This document shows positions 9,269 through 56,649 of a DNA stretch of 64,000 nucleotides, piece by piece. A program made the position numbers and the translations under genes. The DNA comes from Psammoneis japonica (lineage: Eukaryota). Every line of letters starts with the position of its first letter. Position 1 is the stretch's first letter. Location: NCBI GenBank assembly GCA_008632985.1, contig QPGO01000139.1:1-64000 (forward strand), in the 5' to 3' direction. The notes beneath the pieces were generated by a model. It saw only the letters and a program-made list of their open reading frames with translations. It was not told where the DNA came from and made no database searches.

Positions 9269-9311
9269 CTCCCTTCAACAATGTCGGGTGGAATGATGAC
9301 TCGAAAACGTC

Positions 9312-32975: not shown

Positions 32976-33984
32976 TGTCAAGGAATTTTCATGGCCACTG
33001 AACCCTCACCTCTGCTTTCATCTTGCTGTTTGGAGTGAGTTGTTTGGTGCATCATCCATTTGCCTTTCAGCACCACTGGGCACCTGTTGTTGCACAAATT
33101 TGAAGTTTGCACTGACAACTTCTGGGCAACCCAAGGCCAAGCAACAAAGACTGCCAAGTTCTTGAATGCAGTGGGCATCACAGGAAGCCTTGCAGGACTC
33201 CTTTTTGGGGATGTTGACTTGCTGGTTCAACACTCACTCCAAAGAGGCCCTGATGCTGCTTCAAGTGCTTGTGCCTGCCAACCCACAGTTGACAGAACAC
33301 TGCACACCTGCAAAATGAGTGACAGAGGAAGAGGCAGCACAAGCGGAAGGACCAAGGCCAAAGCATGGCCAAGGCAGAGGTGACAACAGTTGCAGGTCCT
33401 CTGGCCAGAAGAAGAAGACCAACAAAAAAGCTTTCAGCCTGACACAAAGTTCCACCCTTGCTTGCTTCATCACTGAGTGGCAATTTTTGCAGCAGTGCAT
33501 GTGAAGACATCAAAGAGAAAGCCTTCTTTTGCTTGCAAAAAGAGTGTGAGCAAGGTGCGAGCATCTGATGATGTCTTTGGAAGACATGAAGTGCAAGGGG
33601 TGTGGTTCTGAGAAGCTCACCTCGAAGGTGTCACCAGCGAAAATGCCCAAGGCAAGCATTGCAGAGTGCCACAAGGCACCAAAGGAAGGAACAGCATGAA
33701 GACAAAGAACTCAAGTGCAAAGCGGAGCTGAGCAACTACCACAGCAAAGTGGCGCAGTTTGAAGAATGAGACAACTGCACCTGTCAAGATCCTGGAAGAT
33801 TGCTGCACCAAGCTGATGAAGCAAAAGTGCAGGGCAATCCCAGATGCTCCAGCACTGGGGATGATCCAATCAAGCTGAGGAAGAAGCTGATCCAACCCCT
33901 TGCACTTGACTCAATGAGATGTGGGCACCCATTGCAACAACAAAACAACAAAACAACAAAACAACAAAACAACAAAAAAACAAA

Positions 33985-34015
<31 letters not shown>

Positions 34016-35954
34016 CACAACAACAACGACAACAATGACAACAACGACAACAATGACAACAACGACAACAACGACAACAACAATGACAACAAGCAACAAC
34101 AACAGCAGTTGGCCCAACAATGCAAAGGACCTGAGCCTTGCCCAGAAGAGCAGCTCCAGCAATGCTGTGGCATGCCACTGCTGGGGTGCACCAGGGCACA
34201 AGTCCCCAGGCTGCAAACATCTGAGCAACATTGCACACAACAGCTGCTGGTTCAAAAGCACCTGAACAAAACTGGATGTTGGGGGGCAGAGGCACACACA
34301 AACTTCAGCAGCAGGCAATGATGACCACCTGTTGGTGGATGGCAACAACGTGAGTGTCAACACCACCAGATCTAGCCAGCTGACCCACTCCAGCTGGAGC
34401 AGGAGCACGGCATGGCATGATGGGTTGCAACTGACAAACAAAAGGTCAGAAACAAGAAGTGTGAGCCAAGCCAATGCAGGCATCAAGAGCAACAAAATTG
34501 TCCTTGACAATGGCTTCACCCTCAGCATGCTGGACAAGAAGACTGGTGAGCAAGTCACAGTGTTTGGAGTTGACAATGTTGGACCATGTGCAATCACACC
34601 AAGCCAGCAATTCTTTGACCATGCAAAACATCTCCAAGAAGGTGAGTTGCATGTGAGAGCACTGAACTGTGGGTCTGATGGGGGGACATGCAAGCACTCA
34701 GACTATCTTGCAAGGCTGGAACACCCAGTGTGAGGGATTTTCAAGTGATTTTTGCATTCAAACCAGGTGAAGATCTTGTCCATCACACCTGAAGACATTG
34801 ACAGAATGGCAGCTGTTTGGGGTCCACCAATGGATGCACTGAAAGGCAAGACCAAACACATGCATTTTTTTCATGAGAGGAACAATGCCACAACAGCCAG
34901 CACACCTCAGCCATGCCAGAAGCAGAGAGAAGCAAGGTGTGATCCTCTGCATCAATGCTTTAGAAGCATGCTGAGTCAAGATGCTGCACGTGACAGACAA
35001 GACAATCAAGTGCCAATCAAGTGTGAGGCTAAAGTCAAAAGCACACTGATGTGTGGTGCAACACACTGGGACATGATTCTCCAACAGCACAACATGGTGC
35101 CACTCAAGTTTGGCTTCATTGCATGTGATCCCAAGTTGATGCAAAAGACAAGAGAGAGGGTCACACATTTGGGTGTGGTGAGAACACATCTTCTCTGCCA
35201 AAGTGGCATGACCCATCATTGAGAAGGCTCAGGTGCTGATGGAAGACATGAACAAACACATCAAACAGCATGCTCCAGAAGTTTGTGAACACATGTCTGC
35301 CACTGTTCCAACATTCTCCATGCACAAGGACAATGATGTGAGTGCACACCATGTGAGATTGGAGTGCATGACAGCAAGCACATTTGACCAAGGAACATTG
35401 GTGTGTCATTGGAGGCTGAGCCTCAAGGCAGGGCAAGGCATGTTGTTGCAAATGGAGGCAACGCACAGACAGTGTCATCAAACAGATGAGTTACAGCAAG
35501 TTTGTTGCTGGATCAAGAGGCAGGGATTTGAAGTTGGCCAAGACAGAAGTGATCCTCAATGCTCTTGGCCCAAAATTTAAATCATCAGCACAAACAACAG
35601 GAGTGTTTTGGAACATCCAGATCATCGGTGTTGTGAGGAATGCAGTGGCCCATTGAGAAAAAATGCTTTGACTCCTGATGTGGCATTGTGAGCAACCATT
35701 GGTGAAGGAATTTGAAGCTGCTGATCTCTCACCTCTGCTTTGGGCCTTCATCTCACCAGTTGTTTGGAGCAAATCATTTGGTGTGTCATCTGCTTGCCAT
35801 TTGGCATCACTGAGCACTGGTTGTTGCACAAGTTTCAAGTTTGCATTGACAACTTCTGGGCAACCAATCTGCTGTCAAGGTGAATGCAGCAAGCATCACA
35901 GGAAGCCCTGTGGGGCTCCCTTTTGGCAACATTGACTTGCCAGTTCAGCACTCA
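32976..35954 (+). mobile_element. Ancient, internally deleted Ty1/copia (CoDi-type) element with diverged LTRs (about 32976-33236 and 35700-35954)
   Basis: Flanking direct repeats share ctcacctctgcttt, ttgttgcacaa, gacaacttctgggcaacc and gcatcacaggaagcc. Internal relics: IVLDNGFTLS (protease-like), ITPEDIDRMAAVWGPPMDALKGKT (CoDi pre-integrase-like), KFGFIACDPKL (RT-like). Confidence 0.6.
33934..34107 (+). repeat. (CAA)n / (AAC)n imperfect microsatellite
   Basis: About 170 bp of caa/caaaa/gacaa units inside the relic gag region. Confidence 0.9.
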
Positions 35955-37199
35955 GGGCCCAAACAAACAAACTTGGAAGAGAAAGAAAATCCTTGCTTGT
36001 GAGGACCAGCAAAGCCAGACAACACCAGGTGCTCCTCTTTGTTCTTCAAATCTTGCACAGGCTGAAGCATTGCCATTGCAAACTCCTCATCCAACCCAAA
36101 GCATTTGAGTGCCTTGCCACAAAAAAAGACTGGGCACACTTGCAAGTTCTTTGTTGACAATGCCAAGAACTTGTTCAAAACATTGCTTGCTGTGCCATTT
36201 TTTCAACTGCAGCACAAACAACAAAGCATCAAAGTTGAGCATGTTGCTGCCCTGCTGAAGTCAACCTGCACTGGTGCATTGTGCTCAAAGAGCAAGTGCA
36301 AACAAGAGCAGAACAAATCACAAAAAGTGGAAAATTGTGAGATTGGATTTTGCTCTGCCAGTCTGGGTTTTTCCATGTGGGCTCTCAATGGCCCAAAGCA
36401 TTTGCACTGTGGTTGTTGCATGTCACAGTGCTCACAGAAGCTTGCAGAACAATCAATTTCAAATTTGGCTCAGCTGTGAAATGACCACATGTCCAGTCAA
36501 CTTCTTGGACAAAGCAAGCAGTTTCTCACTGACAACACTGCATTTGCCAGTCATCATCATGATGCAATGCTGCTGTGCTCAAACTGTCTGGACACACTTG
36601 CAATGATTGTCAATGTGTCTTCTGCATCCTTGAGACTCTTTCCAGGAAAAGCAAATTCAAGCTGAGCTGCAAAAAACTTTGGTTCTGAGTCTCAAGTCTG
36701 GGAGTCAGCAGAAATCTGAAACTGCACTTGCAAACTTCTTTCACATTAGCTTGGTTTGGACTGCATGCACTCCAACACTGCCCATGCATTGGTTTTGACT
36801 TCAGCACTGGCTTTCTGAGGACAATGACAAGCTCAATTAAAAATCCAGTGCACACACAAAATGAGGGCACATCTGACAACAAGAGTTTGGGTGACTGCAG
36901 GTCTTTTGAGGACAGTGCCCATGCTTGTGTCTGTTTGTTGATGGCATGCCATTTGCAAAATGGTTTGGTGTCAATGGTCCTGGCACATTTGTCACACCAC
37001 AATTTGCACTTGGCATGCCACAAAGAGGTCCTTGTCTCTTTCTCATCTCCTGCGGGGGCTGCTCCTGCTGCAGTTTTCATGATTTTTACACTCGCAACAC
37101 ACCTCTTCACATCTTTTGTTTTGGCCCCATGTGGGTGCATGTTGATGATGTGACGTGGCCATTGCTTTGATGCTTCTTGTGACTGTGTGCAGTCTCATT

Positions 37200-39400
37200 T
37201 TGATTGCTCATGTGCATGAGAGGGTTTTCCTTGTTTTTCATGTTCTTGGCAGCAGTGGCTGCCTTGAATCAATGCATGACTCATGCTTGCCAAGATTCAC
37301 ACATCCAGGACACTCAATTGGCATGCTTTTTTCTGGCTTGCACCCCCTCCAGCACATGCTTGTGGGCTCCATGCTGCCACACCTCAGCTCTGCCTGGAAC
37401 AAACCACTCTCTCCCACAAAGTGGCACAGTGAAGGCAAGTCAAGTCAATGATCAATGCAACAAGTTGAGATGGTTGGGCATGTGTGCAATGTTTGCAACT
37501 GCACATGACTCGTGAGCATTGCTTGTGTTCACAATGAAAGTTGGCCACCAGCAAGCAAGAAGGCAGCCAGGGTGTGGGGTCAGCAGCCACAGGCTTGGAG
37601 TTGCCAGCAGCAGGCTGAGCAACTGGCTCCCTTTGACTGGGTGCAGATGGGTTGGGAGTCAAGAGATTTCTTTTTTCAGCATTGGCGCATCTTCTTGGAG
37701 ATGCCTTGACTGTTCCACAGGAGGGTGTCTTCCAACTTGCCAGAACAACAAGGGGGACCCCTTTGGCTGGCCTGGCTTTTTTGCTCCCTTCACCTGTTGT
37801 TGTCCATCCTTCAACCTGGACACTCCTCCACCAGACGGCATTCATGTGGAAGTGGAGCTCATCACATGGCCATCAACTTGAAACAAGCTGGCATTTTTTG
37901 TTGAAGGATCATTCCTGTTTTGAGTTGGAGACACCCTGTCACAGCCTTGGCTCAGCTGCACCTCTTGGCAAGAACACATGTGAATGTTGTCACAGCATCT
38001 TGACACAGCTGCAAGTCTGTGGACACATTCACATGGCTTTTGCACAAGTGATGGGCATGAACGGATGTAAGAAGTCACATCTTGTGTGCTGCTGCTGAGA
38101 TGGCAGCAGCTGGCAAGGTGAACAAACACTGATCTTGTCTTGTGGCTCCAGAGTCCAGAGTGCCATGCATCCCAAGAAGCAGAAGTTGTTCCCTGTCACT
38201 GTGTGAACAGAAGGCTGGGATGGGAGGAGGGAAATTTTCAGTGTGGGGCACCATTTTTGGTTGGCAAACAGATCTCATGTCACACCAATGGCTCGCCAAG
38301 AACAACAAGGGATGTGCTTGGGCAGGCCTTGTCTTGCCATCGGCCATCTGTCCATCTCACTTCCACATCTGCACTGCTGTTGCTTGGTGTGCAAGGTGGG
38401 TGATGACAACTCCAAGAGCCCAACTGCCAACAAGAGATTCCACTCTGTCTTTGTCTTCTTGCAAGCTCAGCTCTCATGTGCTTTTGGCTCAGTGTGGACC
38501 TGAGCAGGATTGCTGCTGTGGCCAATTGGAGCTTTGATGTCTGACATTGAAATGCAAGCCAAAAGCATGACAAAACAATGTGTGAGTCCATGAACATCAC
38601 TCATTTGTCAGCCAACACAAACAACTGTCAAGTGATTGAGAAGCGGTGCACATGGTCTGCAAGTGCCTTGTTGACATGACTGCACCTGAGTGGCTTAAAA
38701 ATTCTTCCCATGTGGACCCCAAGTGTTTGACACAGCATCATCATGATGTTGTTGGTGCAAACAAAGGTGATTGGTGGTGGCAGTCCAGCCAATCATTTGC
38801 ACACATTGATGATCAGATGTAAAAATTGCAAGATTCTGGTGTTTGACACAGAAGCATGAAATTGACGTGGTCTTGATGATGGCAGAAAACAGCCCAGTTG
38901 GGTCAGAACTGCCAAGGAGGTCAACATCACTGTGCACAATCTTGCCTGGTTTGTCTGCAGCAGCCCTGGATGCCTTGGGCACCTGTGGGGGGTCTGGCCA
39001 GCATTGGTGGGCCCAGAGCACAGAGCACACATGTGGGGCGGGGGGCAGCAGGGATGTTGGCAATGTTGGTGTCAGGATGGTGTGTGCACAAGGCAGCTGC
39101 CCCACTGACCCCGCTCCAGTCATTTTGTAATTTGTTTCACACCTGGCACACACTGTTCTTCTGTGTGTGGCATGTGCATGGTCTGCTCCTGCTCAGCAGC
39201 TCTCATTGCAGCGCGTGCCTTTGAAGTGCTGGTGCCCCAAACACATGGGCATGTTGTGGTGGGGACTCAGGGGCAGCGCAGCATCATTGTGTTGGCAACA
39301 AGCCTTGGCTGACTTCACACTGCAGTTCAGTGTGCTGGTGCTTTTTCAAGGGTGGCAACACCCTGTTCCCAACCAACTTGCAAACCCTGCTGCTGGGGGG
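37200..39400 (+). mobile_element. Possible relic of a tyrosine-recombinase (DIRS/Ngaro-like) retrotransposon
   Basis: Weak motif resemblances in the expected order: TIFGWQ (RT), CTAVAWCARWVMTT (RNase H-like), GLRGSAASL (SLR.GGA-like box of YR). Heavily mutated. Confidence 0.2.
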
Positions 39401-39559
39401 TGCCCATGGTGTGGCAGGTGGTCCCATGCTGGCCAACTGGGCATTGACTTCTGAGCACATTTCCATGGATGGTGGCTCACAGTGAGGCCAGAGACATGTG
39501 AGTGGGCATCCATCTGCACAGCAACCAAGGACAATTCAAAGCAGCACACAGGAAAGCCT

Positions 39560-42300
39560 GTGGTGGCCAATCATCTGTCCCCTCAAAGATGGGGCAGCAA
39601 GGTCTGGCGCTGGGGCTGGGAGGTCTGTTCACTCTTGCCAGGAGCAGAGCCAATTGTTTGCAGCCAACTGGGTGTTGTGGACAAGAAGGGCTGGTGCAAG
39701 GTGTTGCATGGTGGGGTTGTGAGGTCACACTCAACACTCCAGCTCAGCTGGCGGCATTGGCAACCATGGTGGAGAGGGGGGGGGGGGGGGAGGTGCACTG
39801 GTGCACAACTTCTTTCTGATTGGTGGAGAGCGGTGCTGTCACATTGCACCTGCAGGCCACTTGGCAGCAGTGCATCTGCAGACTTGTGCAAAAGCAGCTG
39901 CTGGGGGGAGCTGCAGGTCCAGCCAAGGGGGGGGGGGCTTCTTGATCCACCATGAAAGACAAGGATGAATGGAGAGGGGTGTGCCACATGCACACCAGAG
40001 GGCACCTGTGGTGTGTGAGCAGTTGGGGGACACCCACACTTTGCCGAGATGATGTCATCAGCACTGTCCAAGAAGATTGTGGAAGTGCACTTCATTTCAC
40101 CCCTTCTTGACAATGAGTTGGAAGGTGTCAACCTGCACATTGTCAGGTGCAGCATGATGGAGGAGGCAGCCCCACCACCCAACGAGCCTTGAGCACCCAG
40201 TCAGACATGGCTGGTCAGAGCTCAGTGGTGCCAAGCATCTTGCCGTCATCAACGAAAGACCTGCCACTGTTTGCACGGCAATTGCATGGGCCAAGATGGT
40301 GGGCACATTCTTCATCCTTGTGACTGTCTGCTGGTTGCTTGATGTTGCAACAATCAACAACAACAAAGAATGACCTCCTTGGAAGATGCAGCAGTGTCTT
40401 GCCAAAGGTGTGCAAATCTTGGGTTCACTGTTCAATTGGTTTTTTGCAGAAAGCTCACAATTGACAGCACCTGTGGCTGCATTTCCAGGTTTAACAACAG
40501 CCTGCATTTCCATCCAGGAAGGCAGGGGGGCAATTGCAGCCTTCTGGCCAATGTCATGAGCTCCAGTCAAACATCTGCATTGTTTGACATTGTCATTCAA
40601 AAGGGAAAGGAAAGACTTGCAAGCCTTGATTTGGTTGAGCTGAGGAGGAACCACTCCAACAAATCTCTTCCTGAGGCAAAGGCATGCCACAGCCTGAGTG
40701 CAAACCTCCAGTTTCCAATCGTCTTGGGCTTGGGTGCATTGCCAAAATGATGGAAGTCCTCTCATCCACACCATGCTCCTCCTTGTGCAAGTGGAACAAA
40801 AGTGGATGAACAACTTGGACAAGTGGAAGCCAAAGAATTCATCTGCCATGTCAGCCAGGTTGCAGCCCATCCCAAGTGCCAACCAAAAGGAGCATCTGGG
40901 CTGTTGCACTCAAAAAGCACAGACCTGGAGTGCAGGCATGTGTTGCACATTGGACAGAAATCAACTCAAGGCAGTTAAGCTGGAACACCAAACACAAACA
41001 ATGGCACACCTCACAGACAAGTTGGGAGCATCCATTGGGGTCTAGGTTGCACTTGTTTTTGATGGTGAAAAACCCAGGCAACCAGCTGGTGTGCTCACCA
41101 TCATGCAATCCATTGCTGACACTGTGCCAAGACAATCAAATCATTGGAAGTTCCTGACATGCTGGGCCAGAATGGGATCACAGGCATCTTGATTTTTGCC
41201 ACATCATTGCACCCCTTGTGCATCTGCAAGTTGATTGCACAACATTTCAATTCGCTGGTTGCTGGGTCTGGTTGCATGCTCGACAGACCAATGACTTTGC
41301 TGCTGTCACCATTCTTGGTGTCATCTTGACACTCACAATCAAAGCCAGGTGCTTGCCATGTGGTGATGATTCTTGAACAGTCCATCATTGCCTTGGGGGG
41401 TCCATTGTGCTGCCAAACATTGTGCTGTGCTGTGGATGATTGGGGTTGGCAAAAGGGTGCTGACCCTTTGGGATGAAGGGTGCCATCTCACCTGACAATC
41501 CAGCAGCAATGGAAGATTTGATCATGGCATTGACAAAGGCAGGATTGGGCTCACGCTCGCTGGATTTTGACTGCAACTTGGGTGGCACATGTGTGGCTTG
41601 AAGCATGCTGGGACAGCTGTGTCCATCCGTGCTGGCAGTGTGTCCATTGGATTGGCCACCGGCGGCAAAGCCAACATCACAGAAGTCACTGGGTTTCTGC
41701 CATTTCATGGAGTTTTTCTTTGGAATGGCATTGAATTTACATCCAAATTCAATGCCCTCATGGACTCCACGCCAGTCAACCTCCTTCACCAAAAAGCACC
41801 AGCACCTTGGTCTCCTTTGTGGATGATTGTTGTGTTGTGTCATTGGTGTGGACAAACATTTTGGGATTGCACAAACACACAGCTGGAGACACACCCAGAG
41901 CTTCAAAAATCTGCTTCAGCTGCCTCATCAAAAAACCAATCTGGCGCTGGGCATGACCATGCTTGCCTTTGTGCAACAAATGTCCTTGGCACTTTGCCTG
42001 GGGCCAACAGCGAATCTCGGACACACACTCAAGGATGCGGTCAATGTCCAGTTTGCCTCTGTCAATGAAAGTGGATTTTTCTTCTCTGGAAAGATCAAAC
42101 CACTTGTCATTGAACTTCTTGATGAAAAAGCCATGGTTGAAAATAGAGTTCTTGTAGAGAGAAGCTGGCAAGGAGCGGCACAGATGCTGGAAATCTTGTG
42201 CAGTTTGGATGGGAGACATGGGTGGGCAGAAGCATTTGTTTGATGGATTGGCAGAAGCACACCATCAGTGTTTGCACCATGGGAAGTGGCAACATCAGCA
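39560..42300 (-). pseudogene. Decayed long coding relic, possibly an endogenised negative-strand RNA virus L (RdRp) gene
   Basis: Ordered motif resemblances: NQIK...(F), GAQGSLGGGAASSIMLH (B), LDSADDII (C), HKS...VQCDS (D/E). No clear motif A. Confidence 0.25.
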
Positions 42301-43249
42301 AGAACACTGCTCTCATCAAAACTGGCAGGGTCACCATCAGAGAGCAGGTGCAAAGCAGGGGAACTGCTGCCATTCTCATCAACATCATTGGTGTCACAAT
42401 CAAGGAAGAGGTGGCAAGGATCCAAGGCAGCAGTGTCAACAGTGGAAACCACTGAGGGGGGGAATCAGGGGAGACAAGCAGCCTGCCAACCCTGTCCATG
42501 CTTGGCTGACATTGAAAACTCAGTGCTGAGGGTGGAGCTTCAATGGCCAAAGCGGCTGTGCAAGTGAGGAAATGCCACCCTGTCTTCATCTTGTCAAGCC
42601 ATGCAGACAGGGAGAAGAGGCACCCAGAGGGCAAAGTCACAGCATTTGACTTGGCACTCCCCTTGCAATGATGTTTGTGCTTCCTGCCATGATTGCCAGA
42701 GTGACGGCACTTGTTGTCAGTGTGACGTTGCGAATGATGCCTGGCCCCCATTTCACCTGGAGGAGGCTGCAAAAGAGTGGTGGCTGAGGGACCATGATGC
42801 AACACATGTCACAATGCACACAAGGCAGCATCATTGGGGCATTGGTGTGGATGCTTGCCATGTGGCAGTCTTTTGCCATGGTGGCTGCTGAATTTCTTTT
42901 TGGCATGCTGTTTCATGTCGTGCGTGGGAGGAAATCCAACCGTTGAGAGTTCAAACTGAGCATTGAGTTCAAATTCTCATCAAATGTCTGTCTTTAATTG
43001 ACACAACATAAAGTTGCATGCTCTTGGAAATGTCACATGTGTGTGAAGCCAATGGATGGTCAGTCAACCACTTGGCGCACATGACGCAGGCATGACGTGA
43101 GATTGTTGCCCACTTTCCGGGAGGGCCATCTCCTCCTTGATGCCAATGCATCAGATGCCCATTTGCGGCCCACACATGAGCCGCAATTTTTTTCAAATCT
43201 TCAATGACAGAGACAATTGATGAACAGACCCCACAGTTGAATTCTCCAC

Positions 43250-44450
43250 ACCCAAAAACATGGGAATCTACACTTCAACTGTTGAAAAGGACCCACACTG
43301 GTTGTTGTTGTGGCCTCGTTTTTGAGCAATTTTTTGCCAGTTTCTCCCTCCACCATGGCAGACCCTGTGGCTGCTCCCACCAGCAAAAGATGTTCACTCC
43401 AGAAACCTCAGACGCCTGACAACATCATTGGGGAAATGCTGGGGTGGACATGTCAGAATTGCTTGCAGCAGGAACAGACACGTCTTTTTCACCTGTCAAA
43501 GACATGCCACAAAACCCAGCATCACAGTCTGCAGCAGAAGCACCAACTGTTCCCCCCCATGCATGCTCCCCCTCCAAGTCTTCCTGCGAGCCACCAGTGG
43601 CCAAGAGAGCTCAACTTTGACTCAGCTTTGCAAAGCAACAAAGGCAAGACAATGTGGGAAAAGAAGAAACGTGAGTTTGCATTGTTGCTGCAATGGTTGC
43701 TCACTGTCACTGTTCCATTGCTGTTCCAGCATGCTGCCATTGCTTGTCAGTGTCACTTGGAGCCAGTTTGGGTTGAGGCAACCGAGCCAGAAGATGAGGT
43801 GGAAGTGGAGTGTGAGGAGGCGTGGAGGAAGAAGAAGGTCAAGAGTGCCGGCGGCATCATTTGTCTTTGCACCGCTGCATCTTTGCTCTTGCGGGTTTTG
43901 AAAAACAACAACACTCACATGTCTGTTTTCACTCATTCACTGCCACATGTTGTTCCAGTGGCTTCTTGGGAAAAGTCTTGGCACCGCTGCCCGTCATTGT
44001 CATTTGAACGCCAAACCATCCCCACCATGTCAGAGTGCAGCACCACCCCCCTGAGTTTTCAGTCATGACACCTCTTTTGCCCAGTCTGCCCTTTGAAGGT
44101 CTGGTTCAAGTGCCGCTCTTGGAAAGTGACAAGAGTGATTGACTGTGTGTTGGTCTTTTGGGAAAAATGACAGAGTGCACCATTGATGTCCAGCAGCAAA
44201 ATTGGGTTTGGCAGCAACATTGGGTTTGTTGTTGTTTGGATTGTGTCACATCGCTCTTCCAACATTGATCTTTCCCGCAAAAATGACAACGAGACAAGCT
44301 TTGTTTTAAGAATTGTGGCCAATTTGCGGCCCACGTGTGGGTCGCAAAAACATGCGATAAGAATTTTTTGCCATTGTCGTCGGTCTCTCATGCACTCAAG
44401 CATGACAGGCCTGTCACACTTCCAGTGCGTGGACAGACGAAGTTTCAACG
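43250..44450 (-). mobile_element. piggyBac-like transposase relic
   Basis: MRDRRQWQKILIACFCD, ITLVTFQERHLNQTFKG, AACWNSNGTVTVSN and CMGG occur in the order of PGBD motifs MSRNRF..LHF.D, ESMVPF.GRH..KQ..GK, W.DN..VT..SN, YN..MGGVD. Confidence 0.4.
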
Positions 44451-44519
44451 TCCAACAACAGACAGTTGCAAGCAGATGGCATCACCATTTTTAGCTCTGT
44501 GTCACATGTGCACAAAAGG

Positions 44520-45590
44520 GCGACTGCACATCCAACCGTTGTTCACACTGGCGACATGCAAGCATGTGTGCCACAACACCCCCCTTCAAACCAATGCTCG
44601 GATGTTCACGAAGTGCGTTGGCTTGCACTGCATTCAGAGGCAGACATTTTTCCAGTTGTCAGTGTCTGGTGCGCGTGTTTGTGTGTTTTCATTGTGTGTT
44701 GCAACTGTCAGTGCAGTCGCCGGAGAGGTGTCTCCCACACCTGCGGGCACACTTTTTGTGTGTGTTGCATTTTTTGGCCACATGTTTTGATGTTTGTTTG
44801 TTGTGATGGCTGCTCTGTCAGGCACCTCGCACCCTGCTGGCTTCTCGCACCCTGGCTGGAAGGCATGTTTTGTGAGCTCCTCTTGCGCAGACATTTTCTG
44901 CATGTCAGTTTGGCTGTTTTGCAGGCATTTGCCCCCCTGCGTTGCCGCGAACTTTTTTTGCATGAATTCGAGGCGTCGAACCTGCGACCATCAGCGCGAG
45001 GGACGGGGACATTGTGATGTGTTCATTTGCGCAGTTGTCAATGTTGGCCTCGCATTGGATGGGGACATGCTCGGTTCGAATGGGGACATGGTGAGGCACG
45101 CTCGTCACGCTTTGGGGCACAATGGCGCGCGTGTTTGTCAAATTGTTGACGCAGGCCTCCTTGCGCTTTGGGGCACAACAGCCACCATGACGCCAGAGGG
45201 GACACAACAGGGATGCGCTTGTCAGGAACGGGGACATTGCAGCATGAGGAACGGGGACATTGTGATGCATTCATTTACATGGTTGTCAACATTGGCCTCG
45301 CATCGGACGGGGACACGCTCTGTTCGAACGGGGACATGATGGGACAAGCTCGTTACGCTTTGGGACATAGCAATGCATTCATTTTTTTTAATTGTTAATG
45401 TAGGCCTCGTTATGTTTTGGGACACGCTCGTTACGCTTTGGGATATAATAATATATTAATTTATGAAATTGTTAATATAGGCCTCCTTACGCTTTGGGAC
45501 ATAATAACCACCACGACACCAGAGGGCACATCCAACCGTTATGTATTCACACTGGTGATATGCAAATAATAGAGTACACCATAACACTCT
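44520..45590 (+). repeat. Tandem/dispersed repeat units straddling the right border of domain A
   Basis: 45097-45200 is collinear with 45423-45526; about 45002-45160 resembles 45250-45410; 44526-44580 resembles 45526-45587. Confidence 0.85.
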
Positions 45591-45689: not shown

Positions 45690-46487
45690 ATGACTTCACT
45701 GCTACAACAATTCCTTCTTCCGGCCGTCGGGTTGTTCGATTCATGGTGGACAACGATGACAGATTCACAACGTTGTGCAGTCGTGGCCAACGTCTTATTT
45801 TGGATGTGGAGTGGCGTTTGTTGGATGTTAGATCGGTACAGCACGCAAGAGCGAAAAACACCGGTCGGCAAATGGTTGCACCAACAAAAGATACAGGGTG
45901 ATGTCGCATTCACGTACTGTACGACGAATCCTCAATTAGGATGGAAGATCTTACGTATCGCTGCATTGAACATGATCGCTGTAACACCCATCATTGCAAT
46001 TGGTGCAGAATATTTATTCAACACACTGTACGGTGCTGATCGACGATTGACATGTAGCGATGAGTGGAGGGCAACGATTGAGATTCCTAAACTGGTCATT
46101 TCATTTGCAACCGTATCTGTTTGGTTCTATTCGACACATCGGATGCTGCACTGGAAATACTTTTACAAGACGATTCATAAGCTGCACCATAGTGTCACAG
46201 CACCGATGGCCATGTGTGCCGTCTACACGCACCCGATCGAATTCGCGGTGGGGAATGTTGCCGGTGTTGCACTTGGACCAATCCTAACAAACGCTCACCC
46301 CTACACTTCTTATGTGTGGTACGGACTGGCGTTGACCGATACCTGTCGGATGCATTCCGGCTACAAATTTTTGGGTTCATCCCGACATGATGACCATCAT
46401 AACGAACACTTCAATCACAACTTTGGTAACCGGGTGATGGACACCGTCTTCAGAACGCATGCGCCATCATCCCGGAAAAAAATGTAG
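45690..46487 (+). CDS. Fatty acid hydroxylase / sterol desaturase family protein
   Basis: His boxes HRMLH, HKLHH, HDDHH; YTHPIE; MHSGY; NFG...MDTVFRT. Confidence 0.88.
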   Translation: MTSLLQQFLLPAVGLFDSWWTTMTDSQRCAVVANVLFWMWSGVCWMLDRYSTQERKTPVGKWLHQQKIQGDVAFTYCTTNPQLGWKILRIAALNMIAVTPIIAIGAEYLFNTLYGADRRLTCSDEWRATIEIPKLVISFATVSVWFYSTHRMLHWKYFYKTIHKLHHSVTAPMAMCAVYTHPIEFAVGNVAGVALGPILTNAHPYTSYVWYGLALTDTCRMHSGYKFLGSSRHDDHHNEHFNHNFGNRVMDTVFRTHAPSSRKKM

Positions 46488-50455: not shown

Positions 50456-52762
50456 CTCATTCCCACCTTGATGCGGCGGGTGGGTATCGCCGTCTTTGGG
50501 GCTGCCTCGATTTACAATACAAAAAGCTTGTTGAAACTCGATATTTATTTGCCTTTGTGGTTATTTCTCTTTTTTTGTTTCATACGAATACGCTATTCTC
50601 ATAAATTCGATATTTGAACTTGAAGAAAATAAATTAATGAAGAGATTATATTAATACTATGGAGTTCTAAATTAGAATAAGTATCAATAATGATCTCCAT
50701 AAATAAATCTCCAAAATACATTTTACCAAATATAGCTCTTTATGTGGATAATAAATCCGTTGGGATCGTCATTGCAGTTCTCAGATAATCGGTTGGAAGC
50801 TCTGTGAGAAAAACTCTCATGAGCAGAAAATGGCCAGGCCCTGCAGCAAGTGTGCTGCCCTTGCCCCCTTTTTTGTGCAGACTGTAAATGACAAACACCA
50901 TCTGCCAAATGAAGAACAGTGCATGTTCATTTGTCAACTCAGCACTGCACGGCTTTGAAGTGCTGCAAAGAAAACTCAAAGCAGAAGCAGTGCTGGCAGC
51001 GTCGCAACAACTTGCGCCTCAACCCTGGCTGACAAATCCACACAAGAGCAGCAATTGAAGCCTTGGCAGCCAAGAGACTGCAGAAAATGTGGGTGCAATG
51101 CTCTGCACAAACCATGTGAACAGAGGGCATCCACCGCACATGTCCATTTTTGCTGGTTGGGAGAGGGTGGCTTTGGAGCGGCTTTGCTGCAGCACACCCC
51201 GGCTCTCCTGGAGCTGGCCTGAGCAATTCTTCATGTCATGTCATGTCATGCCAGTGCTGCCAGCTGCTGCTGAAAGTTGTGGTTTGAGCTCAAAATCACA
51301 TTTCCTCCATGCTGTTGAGTCCTTGCATGAGACGGGTCAGCCACAAAACAAGGAGGCAATCTCCACAATGTGCTCATGCCGTGTGTGTGTGTGTGTTGGC
51401 TCCACAATGTGGCAAGTGCCGCATGACTTCTGCAAAGCAGTGAAGAGACTGCACCATGTGGGAAAACTGCTCAAACACATGTGTGCCCAGAGTCCCAAAG
51501 GACATGAGCAAACACCACAAACAGCGAGCTTTCACGGTCGTGCGATTGAGATTTCCAGCCTTGGCTTCTGCCGCTGAAAGTTTGTGCACAATTGCTCAAA
51601 CTTGCACCCCCATTTGCTCAAACTTGCAAAAAAAAATCCAGGTTGTGTTCAACATCAACATTTGTGGACAACGTGAGTTGAGTTTTCCATTGACACGCCA
51701 ACAAGACACTTCTTGTTTCCCAACTGCGCTGCCATCCCCCCATCCAAGACAAAAGGCCATTGCAAACAATGGTGTGCATGACTGCCCACTGCAACTGCAT
51801 TGAATTTCCACCACATGACAACAAAAAGCATGCCATTAGAACTGGCACATTTTGGTTGGCACAGAGGCACCATTTTTTGTTTTGTCAGAACAGCAAACAC
51901 AGACTCATGGGCTGATTTCATTGCCTTTCAACTGGAAAGTTCTTGAACCCTCATCTTGGGACATTTTGACCCCCCTGCTCTACAACCAATCAATGTGAAA
52001 ACAGCGCCATTAAACCCACTGCATCAAAGCCAGTCTGCATGGTCACTGCTGTGTCTCGAGGAAACAAGAATTTGGGGACCTTGGTGCATCAACTTGTGGG
52101 CAATGCATCAAGGCCAGCGGGGTCCTTTGAAAACAATGAGTCGATCTCAGCACAAAATGCATCATGATTCAACAATTCCTTCTGTGTGGTGCTGCTCAAC
52201 ATTTTTGTGGCAAAACTTGGCATGCCAGCTTTGGGGCCAAACTTGGCATGCCACCAACTTTGGAGCCAAACTTGGCATGCCAACTTTGGCACAAAACTTG
52301 GCATGCCAAATTTGGGGCAAAACTTGGCATGCCAGTTTTGGGGCAAAAATGGGCATGCCAACTTTGGCACAAAACATGGCGCGCCAGCTTTGGGGCAAAA
52401 CTTGGCATGCCAACTTTGGGGCAAAACTTGGTGTGCCAACTTTGGAGCAAAACTTGGCATGCCAACTTTGGAGCAAAACTTGGCATGCCAGCTTTGGGGG
52501 GTGAAACTTTGCATGCCAACTTTGAAGCAAACTTGGCTTGCCAACTTTGGGGCAAAACTTGGCATGCCAGCTCTGGGGCAAAACTTGGCATGCCGACTCT
52601 GGGGCGAAACTTGCCATGCCAACTTTGGGGCAAAGCTTGGTGTGCCAACTTTGGAGCAAAACTTGGCATGCCAACATTGGGGGGCGAAACTTTGTGTGCC
52701 AGCTTTGAAGCAAACTTGGCTTGCCAACTTTGGTTTAAAACTTGGCATGCCAACTTTGGCAA

Positions 52763-53321
52763 GGGTCTGCGGGAAATCACAATTTTCACCACCTGCATGT
52801 CAAAATTGATGGAGTCGTGCCTGCCAGCACAAAATCTGTCTGACAAGACAAATTTGTCACTGACATCACCTCACAGGAAAGACATTTTCCAGACACAACT
52901 TTTGATGCAAAAAACTGTGTGAGACAAAGAAAGCTGTGGGAAGACCCGGATGTGCACAACCAAAAATGTCCCAAAATTTTGTGTTGTGCAGGAATGCACC
53001 AGGCTTCCACACATGAAAGAACCTGTGTGTGCATTTTTCAAAATGTGTGACACAACTTTCAAAACGCACATCCGGGTCACATTTTTTTGTGCAGATTTTG
53101 TGCTGGAAGTCTTGCAGGAATTCTAAAAACACCCGGATGTGCATTTTCAAAACTGTGGCACAACTTTGATTTGTGTCAAAAGTTGTGTCAAAATTGTGTC
53201 AAAAACGCGCGAGCTCATCACGTGGAAAAAGTGCGTGCGGCTGCACTGCTGGCGTTGCAAACGGTCGAAACTCACAGAGACTCTCTGTTTTTTGCTTAAA
53301 AACATGATTTCCTGCAGACCC
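52763..53321 (+). mobile_element. MITE (559 bp), PIF/Harbinger-like, copy 1
   Basis: TIRs GGGTCTGCGGGAAA / TTTCCTGCAGACCC, flanked by CAA on both sides (3-bp TSD); no coding capacity. Confidence 0.75.
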
Positions 53322-53996
53322 CAAAACTTGGCATGCCAACTTTGGAGCAAAGCTTGGCATGCCAACATTGGGGGGTGAAATTTTGTGTGCCAACTTTGAG
53401 GCAAACTTGGCTTGCCAACTTTGGGGCAAAACTTGGCATGCATGCCAACTGTGGGGCAAAACTTGGCATGCCAACTTTGGGGCAAAACTTGGTGTGCCAA
53501 CTTTGGGGCAAAACTTGGGGCAAAACTTGGCATGCCAACTTTGGCGCAAAACTTGGCATGCCAACTTTGGGGCAAAACTTGGCACGCCAACTTGAGCTTG
53601 GAACTTGGCATGCCAACTTTGGAACAAAGCTTGGCATGCCAACTTTGGGGGGTGAAATTTTGTGCGCCAATTTTGGGCAAACTTGGCTTGCCAACTTTGG
53701 GGCAAAACTTGGCATGCACGCCAACTTTGGGGCAAAACTTGGCATGCCACTTTGGCTCAAAACTGCTTGGCATGCTAACTTTGGGGCAAAACTTGGCACG
53801 CCAACTCAGGGGCAAAACTTGGCATGCCAACTTTTGGGGCAAAATTTGGTGCGCCAACTCTGGGGCAACACTTGGTGTGCCACCTTTGGGGCAAAACCTG
53901 GCACACCAACTTTGTGGCAAAACTTGGCACGCCAACTTTGGGGCAAAACTTGGTGTGCCAACTTTGGTGCAAAACTTGGCATGCCAACTTTGGCAA

Positions 53997-54562
53997 GGGA
54001 TCTGTGGGAAATTTTGTTTTCAAGCAAAAAACAGAGAATCTCAGTGAGTTCCAACCGTTTGCAACACCAACGGTGCAGCTGGCTGCACGTGCTTTTTCTG
54101 CGTGACAAGCTTGCACATTTTTGACACAACTTTGACACAATTTTTGAAACAAATCAAAGTTGCGCCACAGTTTCAAAAATGCACATCCGGGCATTTTTGG
54201 AATTCCTGCGAGACTTCCAGTGCAAAGTCTGCACAAGAAAATGCAGCCCGGGCGTGCATTTTGAAAGTTGCGCCACACATTTTGAAAAATGCACACACAG
54301 GTTTTTTTGCATGTGGAAGCCTGGTGCATTCCTGCACAACACAAAAGTCAGGACATTTTTGATTGTGCACATCCAGGTCTTTGCAAAACTTTTTTTTGTC
54401 TCTCACAGTTTTTTGCATCAAAAGTTGTGTCTAAAAATGTCTTTTCTGCGCGGTGGTGTTGGCAACAAATTTGGCTTGTCCAACAGATTTTGTGCTGGCA
54501 GGCATGACTCACATCAATTTTGACACACAGGTGGCAAAAATGGCAATTTCCCACGCAGACCC
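53997..54562 (-). mobile_element. MITE copy 2, inverted relative to copy 1
   Basis: Diverged reverse complement of 52763-53321 over its whole length; ends GGGATCTGTGGGAAA and TTTCCCACGCAGACCC. Confidence 0.75.
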
Positions 54563-56649
54563 AACAATGGGAATCTTTCAAAAATGACCCGTGATGTAAA
54601 ACGCACAAATCACTTGTGGACGTCCGTAGAATCTGCACGTTTTTGCACCAAAACTGTCATCGTCTCAAAACTTTTGCAAAAAAGGAAATCACTGCTGGCT
54701 GATCAGGCGCATTTCTGCAAATGTGTTGTTCTAAAATGCGCCTGATCAGTTTGCAGCAAAGTCCATTTTTCGCAGAATTAAAATTCACCAAGGGCAGACG
54801 GACAGACAATTTCACATTTTTGCTGGGACTGTTCCACATGATTTCTGCGTGTTTGTGAAACAATGACTCTGCGGCACAAAAGATTGCCACTGACTTGGCA
54901 TGCCAACTTTGGGGGGCGAAACTTTGTGCACCAACTTTGAAGCAAACTTGGCATGCCAACTTTGGGGTGAAACTTTGCACGCCAACTTTGAAGCTGACTT
55001 GGCTTGCCAACTTTGGGGCAAAACTTGGCATGCACACCAACTTTGGGGCGAAACTTGGCATGCCAGCTTTGGCTCAAAACTTGGCATGCCAACTTTGGGA
55101 CAAAACTTGGCATGCCAGCTTTCACGCAAAACTTGGCATGCCAACTTTGGGGCAAAAATGGGCACGCCAACTTTGGCACAAAACATGGCATGCCAGCTTT
55201 GGGGCGAAACTTGGCATGCCAACTTTGGGGCAAAACTTGGTGTGCCAACTTTGGAGCAAAACTTGGCATGCCGACTTTGGAGCAAAACTTGGGATGCCAG
55301 CTTTGGGGGGTGAAACTTTGCACGCCAACTTTGAAGCAAACTTGGCTTGCCAACTTTGGGGCAAAACTTGGCATGCCAACTCTGGGGCAAAACTTGGCAT
55401 GCCAACTCTGGGGCAAAACTTGGCATGCCAACTTTGGGGCAAAACTTGGTGTGCCAACTTTGGAGCAAAACTTGGCATGCCAACCTTGGGGGGCAAAACT
55501 TTGTGCACCAACTTTGAAGCAAACTTGGCTTGCCAACTTTGGGGCAAAACTTGGCATGCCAACTTTGGCTCAAAACTTGGCATGCCAACTTTGGCACAAA
55601 ACTTGGCATGCCAACTTTGGAGCAAAACTTGGCATGCCAACTTTGGGGGGTGAAACTTTATGTGCCAACTTTGAAGCAAACTTGGCTTGCCAACTTTTGC
55701 ACAAAACTTGGCACGCCAACTTTGTTGGGGCCAAACTGGGCACACCAACTTTCGAGCAAATGTCGGCATGCCAACTTTGGAGCGATGCTTGGCATGCCAA
55801 CTTTGGGTCAATCAACACATGGTTGATTGATGCAGCCTGAGTGTCCAAGAGTTGAAAATGGGCAGAAGATGTTGGCGGCAAGAGAGCAGGTGAGATGTGG
55901 AGAGAACACAGCAACAGGAGGTGCAGCAAGTTGTTGCCTGCATCAAGACACTCAAAATCAAGGTGTCCAGTCTTGTGACATTGGCAATGGTGTTTGCATC
56001 AGGAGGAGTGCCAGAGTCACCCTGACAGAGCATTTTGGTGGCCAAAGACAGATGAGAAAGAGATGTGTCAGTGGCTGGCAACAAATCAGGGTCATCCTCT
56101 TTCACAGTGCCCCACAAGGGATCTCCGTGTCAGCTGGTTTGTTGACCAAGATCAGAAGAAGGGGTGTCCTCAACCTCTGGAGATGAGGAGTTGAGCACAT
56201 GTGGTTCATCTGTGCACTGCTGCATGGATTTTGTGGGGGCTGGTTGTTCCCATTGGAGGTGCAATGGCTCTGATGGTTGGATGGGTCAAGATGTTGAGCA
56301 GGGCTGTTGGCATTGGAGCACTGGGGTTGGGTGCAGCTTTCAAAGGACAAACAGACAAAAAGTTGCAGTGTGAGATGTGCCAACAATTGTGGACAATGTG
56401 GCAAGGGCACTTCAAGTTTGCACTTGAAGCTTGGGCTGAGTTTTGCAGGTCATGTGCTCACTTGGTTGTTGGCTTCTGCACCCAGCTGACATGGCAACAA
56501 CAGCTCTGGCAACAGCCAAGTGGTTGCAAGCCACACATTGAGTTTGGAGATGGTGAGACTGAATGAGTGCCACAGCAAGTGAGCTGCGAAGCTTCAACAC
56601 AGAAGCCAAAAGGTCATGGCACCATGGTCAAAGGAGCAGTGTTGTGTTT

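What the first reader, a model, noticed from the sequence alone, without database searches (positions are those of the whole stretch)
45097..45526. Tandem repeat crossing the domain border gives a before/after pair
45423-45526 (outside, TA-rich) and 45097-45200 (inside) align without gaps over 104 bp with 27 differences by manual count: 23 are A/T outside vs G/C inside transitions, one is the reverse (CG vs TG) and three are transversions. Example: gttaatatagg vs gttgacgcagg; cataataacc vs cacaacagcc. An intermediate unit lies at about 45250-45410. The mutagenic zone thus has a positional edge of about 200-300 bp next to the desaturase promoter, suggesting chromatin position rather than sequence alone decides targeting.
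Basis: seen in the sequence. Interest (0 to 1): 0.8.

Follow-up and report, generated by a model that had tools for sequence, protein, structure and literature searches.

The report
Sharp edge of TA-erasing mutation zone
A short tandem repeat next to a gene promoter lies half inside and half outside a block of silent DNA in which nearly every TA step has been rewritten to TG or CA, so its copies show the same sequence before, during and after the rewriting and place the edge of the process within about 170 bases.

Summary
45097-45200 and 45423-45526 align without gaps with 27 differences: 23 outer-A/T versus inner-G/C transitions, 1 reverse, 3 transversions.

The pair belongs to a five-unit tandem array (44992-45533). 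The array straddles the right edge of a 13.8-kb block (about 31505-45275) with TpA at 0.04 and CpG at 0.15 of expectation. A second such block lies at 50790-61736.

TpA retention runs 0 of 14 sites in the inner unit, 5 of 10 in the middle unit and all in the outer unit. All four block edges fall off within about 100-200 bp.

The best reading is in-situ, position-limited TpA-to-TpG/CpA hypermutation. Its preferred target is the adenine in T-A-pyrimidine. The closest known case is the TpA hypermutation of integrated viral DNA in Bigelowiella natans (bioRxiv 10.64898/2026.01.13.699255).

Direction is inferred, not proven, because I could obtain no outgroup copy. That position matters is shown; that chromatin sets the position is untested.

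The scan has already reported this TpA erasure, and one similar edge pair, on other pieces of the same genome. This is a second edge locus, and it adds a sequence-context rule and a penumbra width.

The parts
31505..45275 (.). Block 1: TpA-erased, CpG-poor, TG/CA-doubled non-coding DNA
   Evidence: Over 32000-45000: TA 30 (o/e 0.04), CG 120 (0.15), TG 1489 (1.84), CA 1567 (1.92). TA-free gaps run up to 1364 bp here, against a maximum of 164 bp outside the blocks. No convincing Pfam match in any ORF of 75 aa or more.
44992..45099 (+). Array unit A_inner (0 TpA)
   Evidence: Aligns to 45240-45367 at offset 248 with 83% identity (D1).
45100..45207 (+).
   Evidence: 0 of the 14 outer TpA sites are retained; 9 CpG, of which only 4 are shared with the outer copy.
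45240..45347 (+). Array unit A_mid (one TpA, at 45276)
45348..45425 (+). Array unit B_mid, the intermediate copy (77-78 bp)
   Evidence: TRF period 77. Keeps 5 of 10 comparable TpA sites. All 4 R-TA-Y sites are changed, against 1 of 6 other sites.
45426..45533 (+).
   Evidence: 14 TpA in 104 bp; all four R-TA-Y sites that B_mid has lost are intact here, beginning at 45444.
45276..45443 (.). Penumbra of the edge: only mixed or Y-TA-R class TpA survive
   Evidence: TpA per 100 bp runs 0, 1, 4, 14 from 45100 to 45400. The last changed site is 45399 and the first intact R-TA-Y is 45444.
44526..44566 (+). In-block copy of the sequence that follows the array (45526-45570), a second short after/before pair at offset 1000
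   Evidence: 15 nt exact plus 20 nt at 90% (D14, D8). Alignment. Three outer TA correspond to inner TG/CA.
45690..46487 (+). Intact neighbouring gene, fatty-acid hydroxylase superfamily
   Evidence: PF04116, E 6.3e-16. Normal TpA, 2-6 per 100 bp.
50790..61736 (.). Block 2, same signature
   Evidence: Over 51000-61000: TA 18 (o/e 0.03), CG 106 (0.18). Edges.
8921..15480 (-). Copia-type LTR retrotransposon outside the blocks, with normal TpA content but LTRs that differ mostly at TpA
   Evidence: RVT_2 E 4e-35 and gag_pre-integrase. TpA o/e 0.63. The 351-bp LTRs have 10 differences, 7 of them TA versus TG/CA.

Best explanation
A 540-bp tandem array (A-B-A-B-B units, 44992-45533) lies across the right-hand edge of a 13.8-kb block of non-coding, probably repeat-derived DNA. 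A regional mutator has rewritten TpA to TpG or CpA in place on the chromosome, and CpG has also decayed to TpG/CpA in the block interior. The mutator hits the adenine in 5'-T-A-pyrimidine-3' most readily, on either strand. T-A-purine and purine-A-pyrimidine are weaker targets. Alternating TA runs, where every A keeps pyrimidine neighbours after each hit, go all the way to CG runs. The dose is saturating in the inner units (every TpA gone). It is intermediate in the middle unit (all four R-TA-Y sites gone, most others kept). It is nil in the outer unit, 250-400 bp upstream of the start codon of an intact hydroxylase gene. The inner and outer copies are therefore an after/before pair, and the process stops over about 170 bp for reasons of position, not of local sequence. 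Shown: the sequence pattern, the gradient, the context rule and the sharpness of all four edges. Inferred: the direction (TA ancestral), the chemistry (adenine deamination on DNA, as proposed for Bigelowiella), and the idea that silent chromatin bounded by an active promoter sets the limit.
For: (1) Block-wide signature: TpA o/e is 0.03-0.04 and CpG 0.15-0.18 inside, against 0.60 and 0.98 outside, with TG/CA 1.8-1.9.
(2) Mass balance from the counts: pyrimidine-purine steps total 241 per kb outside (TA 40, CG 57, TG 76, CA 67) and 247 per kb in block 1 (2.3, 9.2, 114.5, 120.5). This is what conversion of ordinary DNA by transitions would give.
(3) The inner A+B unit (248 bp) has no TpA. 0 of 38,337 windows of 248 bp outside the blocks are TpA-free, and the longest outside gap is 164 bp. 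Windows as TA-rich as the outer copy do occur naturally (0.6%, several intergenic sites). So the inner state is the abnormal one.
(5) The same context rule holds block-wide. 0 of 50 residual TpA are R-TA-Y (31.8% of 1556 outside) and 28 of 50 are Y-TA-R (17% outside). In mixed contexts the product follows the T-A-Y rule in 12 of 14 independent changes (after removing one inner site that was counted twice; 12 versus 3 as printed, p 0.018).
(6) Gradient: B_inner keeps 0 of 14, B_mid 5 of 10, B_outer all. The last changed site is 45399 and the first intact R-TA-Y is 45444.
(7) All four edges drop within 100-200 bp. At each edge the first TpA met on leaving the block are non-R-TA-Y (3, 8, 6 and 5 sites). 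By hand, 0.682^22 is about 2e-4, a post hoc figure.
(8) The copies differ at TpA sites although they arose by local duplication, so the changes happened in the chromosome after duplication and not in an RNA or cDNA before insertion.
(9) De novo TpA-to-TpG/CpA hypermutation confined to particular regions has been observed directly in mutation-accumulation lines of Bigelowiella natans (Results and Discussion read).
(10) k-mer contigs of run X1 reproduce the TpA-free sequence at depth 50-62 with 2-12 differences per 0.5-2.2 kb piece. One 9,047-nt contig bridges the left edge of block 1 with 0 differences.
Against: No outgroup: every pairwise pattern (TA versus TG/CA/CG and its flanks) is symmetric under the reverse direction.
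6 of the 23 transitions are not in an outer TpA, for example GGGACA versus GGGGCA twice. Two of 14 mixed-context changes go against the rule.
The tetranucleotide comparison uses mostly coding DNA as its baseline, and one search shows other compositional differences (GAT 0.56, GGG 1.63) that the model does not explain.
No transposon or viral protein domain was found in either block (0 convincing hits in 193 ORFs), so 'foreign DNA' is not shown here.
No listed contig bridges 43670-45478, so the right-hand junction is not independently confirmed.
B_mid and B_outer differ by about 5 transversions and an indel, so the array is old and its history is not fully resolved.
Confidence: 0.7

Rival explanations
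1. Reverse direction. The array arose from already TA-free DNA, and the outer units later gained TpA through a RIP-like C-to-T process (CpA to TpA, CpG to TpG to TpA) acting next to the promoter.
For: All pairwise differences are symmetric. The outer copy is unusually TA-rich (14 per 104 bp, top 0.6% of windows). The array is a tandem duplication, the classic RIP substrate (recalled). At some A-unit sites an ancestral CpG is as parsimonious as TpA (columns 27-42).
Against: It still needs a TpA-erasing process to explain a TA-free ancestor and the 25 kb of TA-free blocks, so it adds a second unknown mutator. RIP hits both copies of a duplication (recalled), yet the inner unit has 0 TpA. TA-rich belts also lie outside the other three edges, where there is no repeat, and they look like ordinary intergenic DNA. 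The context rule seen in B_mid matches that of the residual TpA deep in the blocks.
Confidence: 0.07
2. Selection edge. The mutator is not confined; TpA in the outer unit and beyond survives because the promoter and 5' region of the hydroxylase gene need it, and mutated alleles are purged.
For: All four edges lie within a few hundred bases of gene ends or likely promoters. The outer unit holds TATA-like runs 235-245 bp upstream of the ATG.
Against: At the left edge of block 1, 19 TpA, including R-TA-Y sites at 31411, 31438 and 31497, survive in the 180 bp after a stop codon, where site-by-site selection is unlikely. Erasure starts within about 10-80 bp of them. The same ATAT runs are lost in B_mid and kept in B_outer only 78 bp away.
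Confidence: 0.1
3. Homology-triggered mutation with leakage. The mutator recognises the multi-copy element that ends near 44.97-45.0 kb and spills a few hundred bases into adjoining low-copy DNA, as RIP does, with no need for a chromatin domain.
For: Contigs of the same sample pile up over 43.0-45.0 kb (summed depth 298-585, and 167-667 at indel sites as far as 44968), against 57 over the flanking genes and 80 in the bin from 45007. This is a hint only, because the tool warns that depth is not copy number. Erasure would then run about 300-400 bp past the repeat's end. The Copia element's LTRs show the earliest changes.
Against: Stretches inside block 1 that lie at about single depth (37.0-40.3 kb, 54-82) are just as TpA-free, although old diverged repeats would look the same. 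Leakage and chromatin spreading predict the same sequence pattern, so this is a variant of the main reading rather than its opposite.
Confidence: 0.2
4. Artefact: a misjoined or collapsed tandem repeat, or base-calling errors on modified DNA.
For: No listed contig spans 43670-45478, and contig 8 starts inside B_outer at 45478. One joint (45508 back to 45468 with 14 extra letters, depth 33) shows that the array varies in the reads.
Against: Independent k-mer contigs reproduce the TpA-free block at depth 50-62 and bridge the left edge without a difference. The graded series A_mid/B_mid is not what a chimeric join would give. The units differ by 17-26%, enough for any assembler to tell them apart.
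Confidence: 0.03

Closest known systems
TpA-restricted hypermutation of integrated giant-virus and virophage DNA in Bigelowiella natans (Mettrop et al., bioRxiv 10.64898/2026.01.13.699255; abstract, Results and Discussion read)
   Same: Almost only A-to-G and T-to-C changes, all at TpA, giving TpG/CpA. Confined to particular regions of tens to hundreds of kb while the rest of the genome is normal. Long-term signature of TpA depletion with CpA+TpG enrichment in clusters of windows. DNA adenine deamination is the proposed mechanism.
   Different: A different lineage: the named relatives of this window's Copia element are diatoms. Erasure here is near complete (o/e 0.03-0.04, against Rho 0.45 for their viral region). 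There is no recognisable viral or transposon gene in these blocks. CpG is lost as well. The text of the preprint has no occurrence of diatom, boundary, flank, CpG or trinucleotide, so edges, the 3'-pyrimidine rule and the coupling with CpG are not described there. No de novo mutations were observed here.
Repeat-induced point mutation (RIP) of Neurospora and other fungi (recalled; also named in the preprint's Discussion)
   Same: Hypermutation by transitions that inactivates repeated or foreign DNA. A dinucleotide preference. Known (recalled) to leak some hundreds of bases into adjoining unique DNA.
   Different: Opposite chemistry and outcome: RIP turns CpA into TpA and makes DNA A+T-rich and TpA-rich, whereas here TpA disappears and G+C stays near 48%. 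RIP mutates both members of a duplication; here one member of a tandem pair is spared.
ADAR or APOBEC hyper-editing of viral and retroelement RNA or cDNA (recalled; discussed)
   Same: A-to-G changes with a 5' U/T preference (ADAR). Clustered changes as a defence.
   Different: Those act before integration, so the edges would be insertion junctions. Here homologous copies on the two sides of the edge differ, so the editing was on chromosomal DNA in place.
Methylation-driven CpG decay of silenced transposons; repressive marks on diatom transposons (PMC4504042, passages read)
   Same: CpG at 0.15-0.18 of expectation in the block interiors. In Phaeodactylum, H3K9me2/3 and H3K27me3 mark mostly Copia elements, which are largely untranscribed.
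   Different: CpG decay alone cannot remove TpA. On the right sides of both blocks CpG is back to normal 0.7-1 kb before the TpA edge.
Polymerase-eta phase of somatic hypermutation at WA motifs (recalled)
   Same: A-to-G changes at A preceded by T or A, following a cytosine-deamination trigger.
   Different: That process gives many transversions. Here there are 24 transitions to 3 transversions in the pair, and TpA removal is near complete.

Membership tests
TpA hypermutation of the Bigelowiella natans type | Changes are almost exclusively A:T to G:C transitions | tested here: met
   23 of 27 differences in the pair are A/T (outer) versus G/C (inner) transitions, if the outer copy is ancestral. 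7 of the 9 LTR transitions are TA versus TG/CA.
TpA hypermutation of the Bigelowiella natans type | Changes fall on TpA, giving TpG or CpA | tested here: met
   17 of the 23 lie in an outer TpA. Block TpA o/e is 0.03-0.04 with TG/CA at 1.8-1.9. Not exclusive: 6 of 23 lie outside TpA, mostly at A followed by a pyrimidine.
TpA hypermutation of the Bigelowiella natans type | Confined to delimited regions while neighbouring DNA is normal | tested here: met
   Four edges, each 100-200 bp wide, with neighbouring genes at normal TpA.
TpA hypermutation of the Bigelowiella natans type | Target is DNA of viral or other foreign origin | tested here: inconclusive
   No convincing Pfam match in 193 block ORFs of 75 aa or more. 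A contig pile-up hints at a repeat family over 43-45 kb.
TpA hypermutation of the Bigelowiella natans type | Mutations arise de novo at a raised rate (about 1000-fold) in mutation-accumulation lines | not testable with these tools
   Only one sample holds the stretch, so there are no lines or strains to compare.
RIP (fungal repeat-induced point mutation) | C:G to T:A transitions, CpA to TpA, yielding TpA-rich, A+T-rich DNA | tested here: not met
   The blocks are TpA-free and stay at 48% G+C.
RIP (fungal repeat-induced point mutation) | Both copies of a duplicated segment are mutated | tested here: not met
   B_inner has lost 14 of 14 TpA while B_outer keeps all of them.
Pre-integration RNA/cDNA editing (ADAR/APOBEC type) | Edited tract ends at the insertion junction and flanking host DNA is untouched | tested here: not met
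   Homologous array units lie on both sides of the edge, with a graded intermediate.
Methylation-linked CpG decay | CpG depleted with matching TpG/CpA excess | tested here: met
   CpG o/e 0.15-0.18. At four A-unit sites the inner copy has TG where the middle copy has CG. Methylation itself was not tested.

The most novel reading that the evidence does not exclude
Diatoms have a genome-defence system that edits adenines in DNA (T-A-pyrimidine to T-G-pyrimidine) only inside silenced chromatin domains. Its activity falls from saturating to zero across roughly one nucleosome's length at the border with an active promoter. It creates new CpG from TA runs, which a second, methylation-linked process then removes, so both palindromic pyrimidine-purine steps drain into TG/CA. 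Tandem repeats that straddle a border would then be natural dosimeters of this system.
Probability: 0.4. Interest if true: 0.85.

Novelty: new variant of a known kind. Interest (0 to 1): 0.68.

Why it matters
Targeted A:T-to-G:C hypermutation of chromosomal DNA has been reported once, in a chlorarachniophyte, and nothing is known there about how it is aimed. This locus gives a natural internal control: the same sequence at saturating, partial and zero dose within 440 bp.

It shows four things. The editing acts on integrated DNA in place. Local duplication and local sequence are not sufficient to attract it. It stops over about 170 bp beside an intact gene. It prefers T-A-pyrimidine.

These are concrete constraints for finding the enzyme and its guide. 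One would look for a deaminase or equivalent tied to silent chromatin, small RNAs or DNA methylation. The locus also names an exact place (44.9-45.7 kb) at which to map histone marks, 5mC and nucleosomes.

If the system is real in diatoms as well as in Bigelowiella, it is widespread among algae. It would then matter for how their genomes silence transposons and for reading dinucleotide composition in genome annotation.

Tried and rejected
No whole genome is held for this window, so other genomic copies could not be collected.

Only one sample holds the stretch (X1-X3, one study), so there is no strain or population comparison. Laying X1 and X2 gave no listed contig across 43670-45478. The right junction is therefore neither confirmed nor refuted (575 pieces and 264 differences were not shown).

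X2 gave no cover over most of block 1 and split pieces over the flanking genes.

The metagenome scan with the hydroxylase protein found 2 loci at only 28-31% identity, so there is no orthologous upstream region.

The protein search with the Copia RT found 1383 relatives, the best at 69% identity. There were no near-identical copies for a tyrosine-codon direction test. It did show that the three hits carrying an organism name are diatoms.

Pfam on 62 + 131 block ORFs gave only sub-threshold or low-complexity matches. DUF3400 scored just over its cut-off (26.2-26.3 bits against 25) in two ORFs, in each case with no stretch passing on its own. tblastn of 170 outside ORFs against the blocks gave one chance-level hit. 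A weak FA_hydroxylase hit at 51947-52501 (E 0.018) was not borne out by tblastn.

The earlier-findings look-up by sequence found no look-alike stretch.

The Atlas search named the gene family but gave no useful taxon.

Parsimony on the five units cannot orient the changes, because TA-to-TG/CA-to-CG and the reverse cost the same on every tree I considered.

A runs test of TG versus CA order showed no strand-coordinated clustering in the blocks (z +3.2, that is slightly more alternation than chance, against -2.2 outside).

The idea that C-A-pyrimidine is a general slow substrate fits the border pair and the surplus of Y-TG-Y/R-CA-R. It is not secure, because the baseline is coding DNA.

Literature: searches found the Bigelowiella preprint and nothing on TpA erasure in diatoms. 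One search was rejected for a badly formed term and was not repeated.
Full report
OBSERVATION. A script classified the differences. There are 23 transitions with A/T in the outer copy (45423-45526) and G/C in the inner copy (45097-45200). There is one reverse transition (inner TG at 45188, outer CG at 45514) and three transversions. The outer copy has 14 TpA and 38% G+C; the inner has none and 61% G+C. The 14 outer TpA correspond to inner CA (6), TG (4), CG (3) and GT (1). In 30 shuffles of 44000-46500 the best 104-bp gapless identity was 53 at most, against 77 here.

SETTING. The window is eukaryotic. Its Copia element's closest named relatives are from diatoms (Attheya, Epithemia, Fragilaria), the only three organism names among the 120 hits listed. 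Earlier notes of this scan also call the genome a diatom. Two blocks, about 31505-45275 and 50790-61736, are almost free of TpA (o/e 0.04 and 0.03) and poor in CpG (0.15 and 0.18). TG and CA are nearly doubled there (1.7-1.9). The rest of the window has TpA 0.60 and CpG 0.98. G+C stays near 48% throughout. Outside the blocks the longest TpA-free gap is 164 bp. Inside, gaps reach 3716 bp, and the gap holding the inner units is 784 bp (44492-45276). From the counts, the four pyrimidine-purine steps sum to 241 per kb outside and 247 per kb in block 1. The blocks therefore look like ordinary DNA in which TA and CG were turned into TG/CA by transitions. None of 193 block ORFs of 75 aa or more gave a convincing Pfam match. 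With TAA and TAG gone, long spurious ORFs abound.

ANATOMY OF THE ARRAY. Repeat finders and a purine/pyrimidine-collapsed word match show the basic structure. 44992-45130 matches 45240-45378 (offset 248). 45092-45200 matches 45418-45526 (offset 326). There is a 77-78-bp sub-repeat at 45340-45417 / 45418-45495. A five-way alignment gives units A_inner 44992-45099, B_inner 45100-45207, A_mid 45240-45347, B_mid 45348-45425 and B_outer 45426-45533. The 17-nt core occurs at exactly these five places in the window and nowhere else without mismatch. The 45 bases after the array (45526-45570) have a further copy 1000 bp to the left, inside the block (D14 and D8). It again carries TG/CA where the outer copy has TA. 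The gene that follows (ATG at 45690) is a PF04116 hydroxylase/desaturase-superfamily protein.

THE GRADIENT. TpA per 100 bp runs 0 (45100), 1 (45200), 4 (45300), 14 (45400) and 10 (45500), then 2-6 in the gene. Site by site, B_inner keeps 0 of 14 outer TpA. B_mid keeps 5 of the 10 sites comparable by transitions. A_mid has one TpA (45276) where A_inner has TG. The last changed site is 45399 and the first intact site of the most sensitive class is 45444. The other three block edges are as sharp: 7, 2, 1, 0 at 31400-31700; 10, 1, 0 at 50700-50900; 0, 2, 8 at 61600-61800.

A CONTEXT RULE. Of 50 TpA left in the block interiors, none is in purine-TA-pyrimidine (R-TA-Y), against 31.8% of 1556 TpA outside. 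28 are in Y-TA-R, against 17% outside. By hand, 0.682^50 is about 5e-9. Read per adenine, this says that A in T-A-pyrimidine is hit and A in T-A-purine is spared. In mixed contexts the rule predicts which strand changes (Y-TA-Y to Y-TG-Y, R-TA-R to R-CA-R). 12 of 14 independent changes in the array, the 1000-bp pair and the Copia LTRs obey it (printed as 12 versus 3 because one inner site is compared twice). Block-wide, Y-TG-Y plus R-CA-R rise by 29.5 per kb and Y-CA-Y plus R-TG-R by only 3.5. That baseline is mostly coding DNA, and one search shows other unexplained differences, so I treat it as supportive only. The rule explains B_mid: all 4 R-TA-Y sites are changed and only 1 of 6 others (Fisher, by hand, about 0.02). 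It also explains the striking TA-run to CG-run changes. In alternating TA every adenine on both strands keeps pyrimidine neighbours after each hit. All three TA-to-CG sites lie in such runs (45452, 45454, 45476).

PENUMBRA AT EVERY EDGE. On leaving each block, the first TpA met are all of the resistant or mixed classes. The count is 3, 8, 6 and 5 sites at the four edges, before the first R-TA-Y at 31497, 45444, 50731 and 61836. By hand, 0.682^22 is about 2e-4; the test is post hoc.

CpG. CpG loss coincides with the TpA edge on the left sides of both blocks. On the right sides it recovers 0.7-1 kb earlier. The zones 44.3-45.27 kb and 61.07-61.7 kb are TpA-free with near-normal CpG. In B_inner only 4 of 9 CpG are shared with the outer copy; the others correspond to outer TA (3), TT and CA. 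So part of this CpG would be newly made by the adenine changes. Conversely, at four A-unit sites the inner copy has TG where A_mid has CG. Either the right-hand zones joined the blocks more recently, or cytosine decay covers less ground than adenine editing.

DIRECTION. Every pairwise pattern is symmetric under reversal, and I could get no outgroup. I infer that TA is ancestral for the following reasons. First, a TA-free 248-bp unit is never seen in ordinary DNA of this window (0 of 38,337 windows), while TA-rich stretches like the outer copy are. Second, the inner units are continuous with 13.8 kb of TpA-free DNA that only TpA loss can produce. Third, the reverse story therefore needs that same loss plus a second, RIP-like mutator acting only outside the block. 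Fourth, undirected drift cannot give 23:1 directional transitions, 17 of them at TpA. Fifth, one context rule accounts for the deep residues, the intermediate unit and the product choice. Sixth, the process has been watched de novo in Bigelowiella natans: 231 of 302 new nuclear single-nucleotide mutations fell in two viral regions, all but one were A-to-G or T-to-C, and all of these were at TpA. I put the forward direction at about 0.85-0.9.

WHAT DECIDES TARGETING. The array units are local duplicates, so their TpA-site differences arose after duplication, on the chromosome. This rules out editing of an RNA or cDNA before insertion. Being duplicated is not enough, because B_outer is spared. 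Exposure time does not explain it, because B_mid and B_outer are equally old yet differ. Being a transposon is not enough for full erasure either. The Copia element at 8921-15480 has normal TpA (0.63). Its 351-bp LTRs nonetheless differ at 10 sites, 7 of them TA versus TG/CA, with 6 of the 7 having TA in the 8921 LTR. This looks like the first stage of the same process.

What sets the position is open. Silent chromatin bounded by an active promoter is plausible. In Phaeodactylum, H3K9me2/3 and H3K27me3 mark mostly Copia elements, most of them untranscribed (passages of PMC4504042). Leakage from the repeat family would look the same. That family's contigs pile up as far as about 44968 (a hint only, since depth is not copy number). 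Selection on the promoter seems less likely, because at the left edge of block 1 nineteen TpA survive in the 180 bp after a stop codon, right up to the erased zone.

RELIABILITY OF THE SEQUENCE. k-mer contigs of run X1 (possibly the sample the window was assembled from) reproduce 31000-33243 with 0 differences, bridging the left edge. They reproduce six pieces inside block 1 with 2-12 differences each at depth 50-62. So the TpA-free state is in the reads. The right edge itself is not bridged by any listed contig. Contig 8 starts at 45478. One joint (45508 back to 45468 with 14 extra letters, depth 33 against 57) suggests a variant with one more B unit.

COMPARISON AND NOVELTY. The closest known system is the Bigelowiella TpA hypermutation. 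It shares the chemistry, the dinucleotide and the regional confinement. Fungal RIP is analogous in purpose, but two of its defining features fail here (direction, both copies mutated). My searches found no report of TpA erasure in diatoms. Within this scan the phenomenon has been noted many times on other pieces of this genome, including one edge-straddling duplicate (e1-7549555) and a half-erased gene copy (e1-7623287). This locus is thus a second, independent edge. It adds a three-step dose series, the T-A-pyrimidine rule, the penumbra seen at four edges, and the offset between the CpG and TpA edges.

VERDICT. I class it as a new variant of a known kind, with interest 0.68.

Noticed in passing
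window 8921-15480 (- strand): A largely intact Copia-type LTR retrotransposon (RVT_2, gag_pre-integrase) with normal TpA content. Its two 351-bp LTRs differ at 10 sites, 7 of them TA versus TG/CA, and in 6 of the 7 the TA is in the 8921 LTR. It looks like the first stage of the same mutation process acting outside the erased blocks.
   Followed up: partly
window 50790-61736: A second TpA-erased block with equally sharp edges. It holds internal direct and inverted repeats that match only after purine/pyrimidine collapsing (52322/55131, 412 bp; inverted 52782/54541, 462 bp; 57230/59239).
   Followed up: partly
window 44300-45275 and 61070-61736: On the right side of both blocks a 0.7-1 kb zone is TpA-free but has near-normal CpG (3-9 per 100 bp), while on the left sides CpG and TpA edges coincide. 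Either these zones joined the blocks later or cytosine decay covers less ground than adenine editing.
   Followed up: partly
block interiors 31700-45200 and 50900-61700: The 50 residual TpA are never in purine-TA-pyrimidine and are mostly TTAA or CTAA/TTAG. Residual CpG is highest in purine-CG-pyrimidine (33% of the outside level, against 12% for Y-CG-R).
   Followed up: yes
window 45468-45508: Contigs of run X1 include a joint that goes back from 45508 to 45468 with 14 extra letters, at depth 33 against 57. This fits an allele with one more TA-rich B unit.
   Followed up: no
window 44640-44700: Short similarities to both A- and B-type array units (44645-44665 to 45024-45044 at 81%; 44667-44682 to 45123-45138 at 94%) suggest an older, degenerate copy of the array unit inside the repeat family that abuts the array.
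   Followed up: no
window 46800-49748: Contigs of run X2 lie only on genic stretches and are split by 95 bases (47447-47541) and 78 bases (48758-48835), like spliced transcripts. The run is labelled 'DNA?' but behaves like a transcriptome.
   Followed up: no
window 33000-35000: Strong A-over-T skew (AT skew +0.26 to +0.32) inside block 1, and G+C of 0.58 at 39-40 kb. The block is a mosaic of compositionally different pieces.
   Followed up: no
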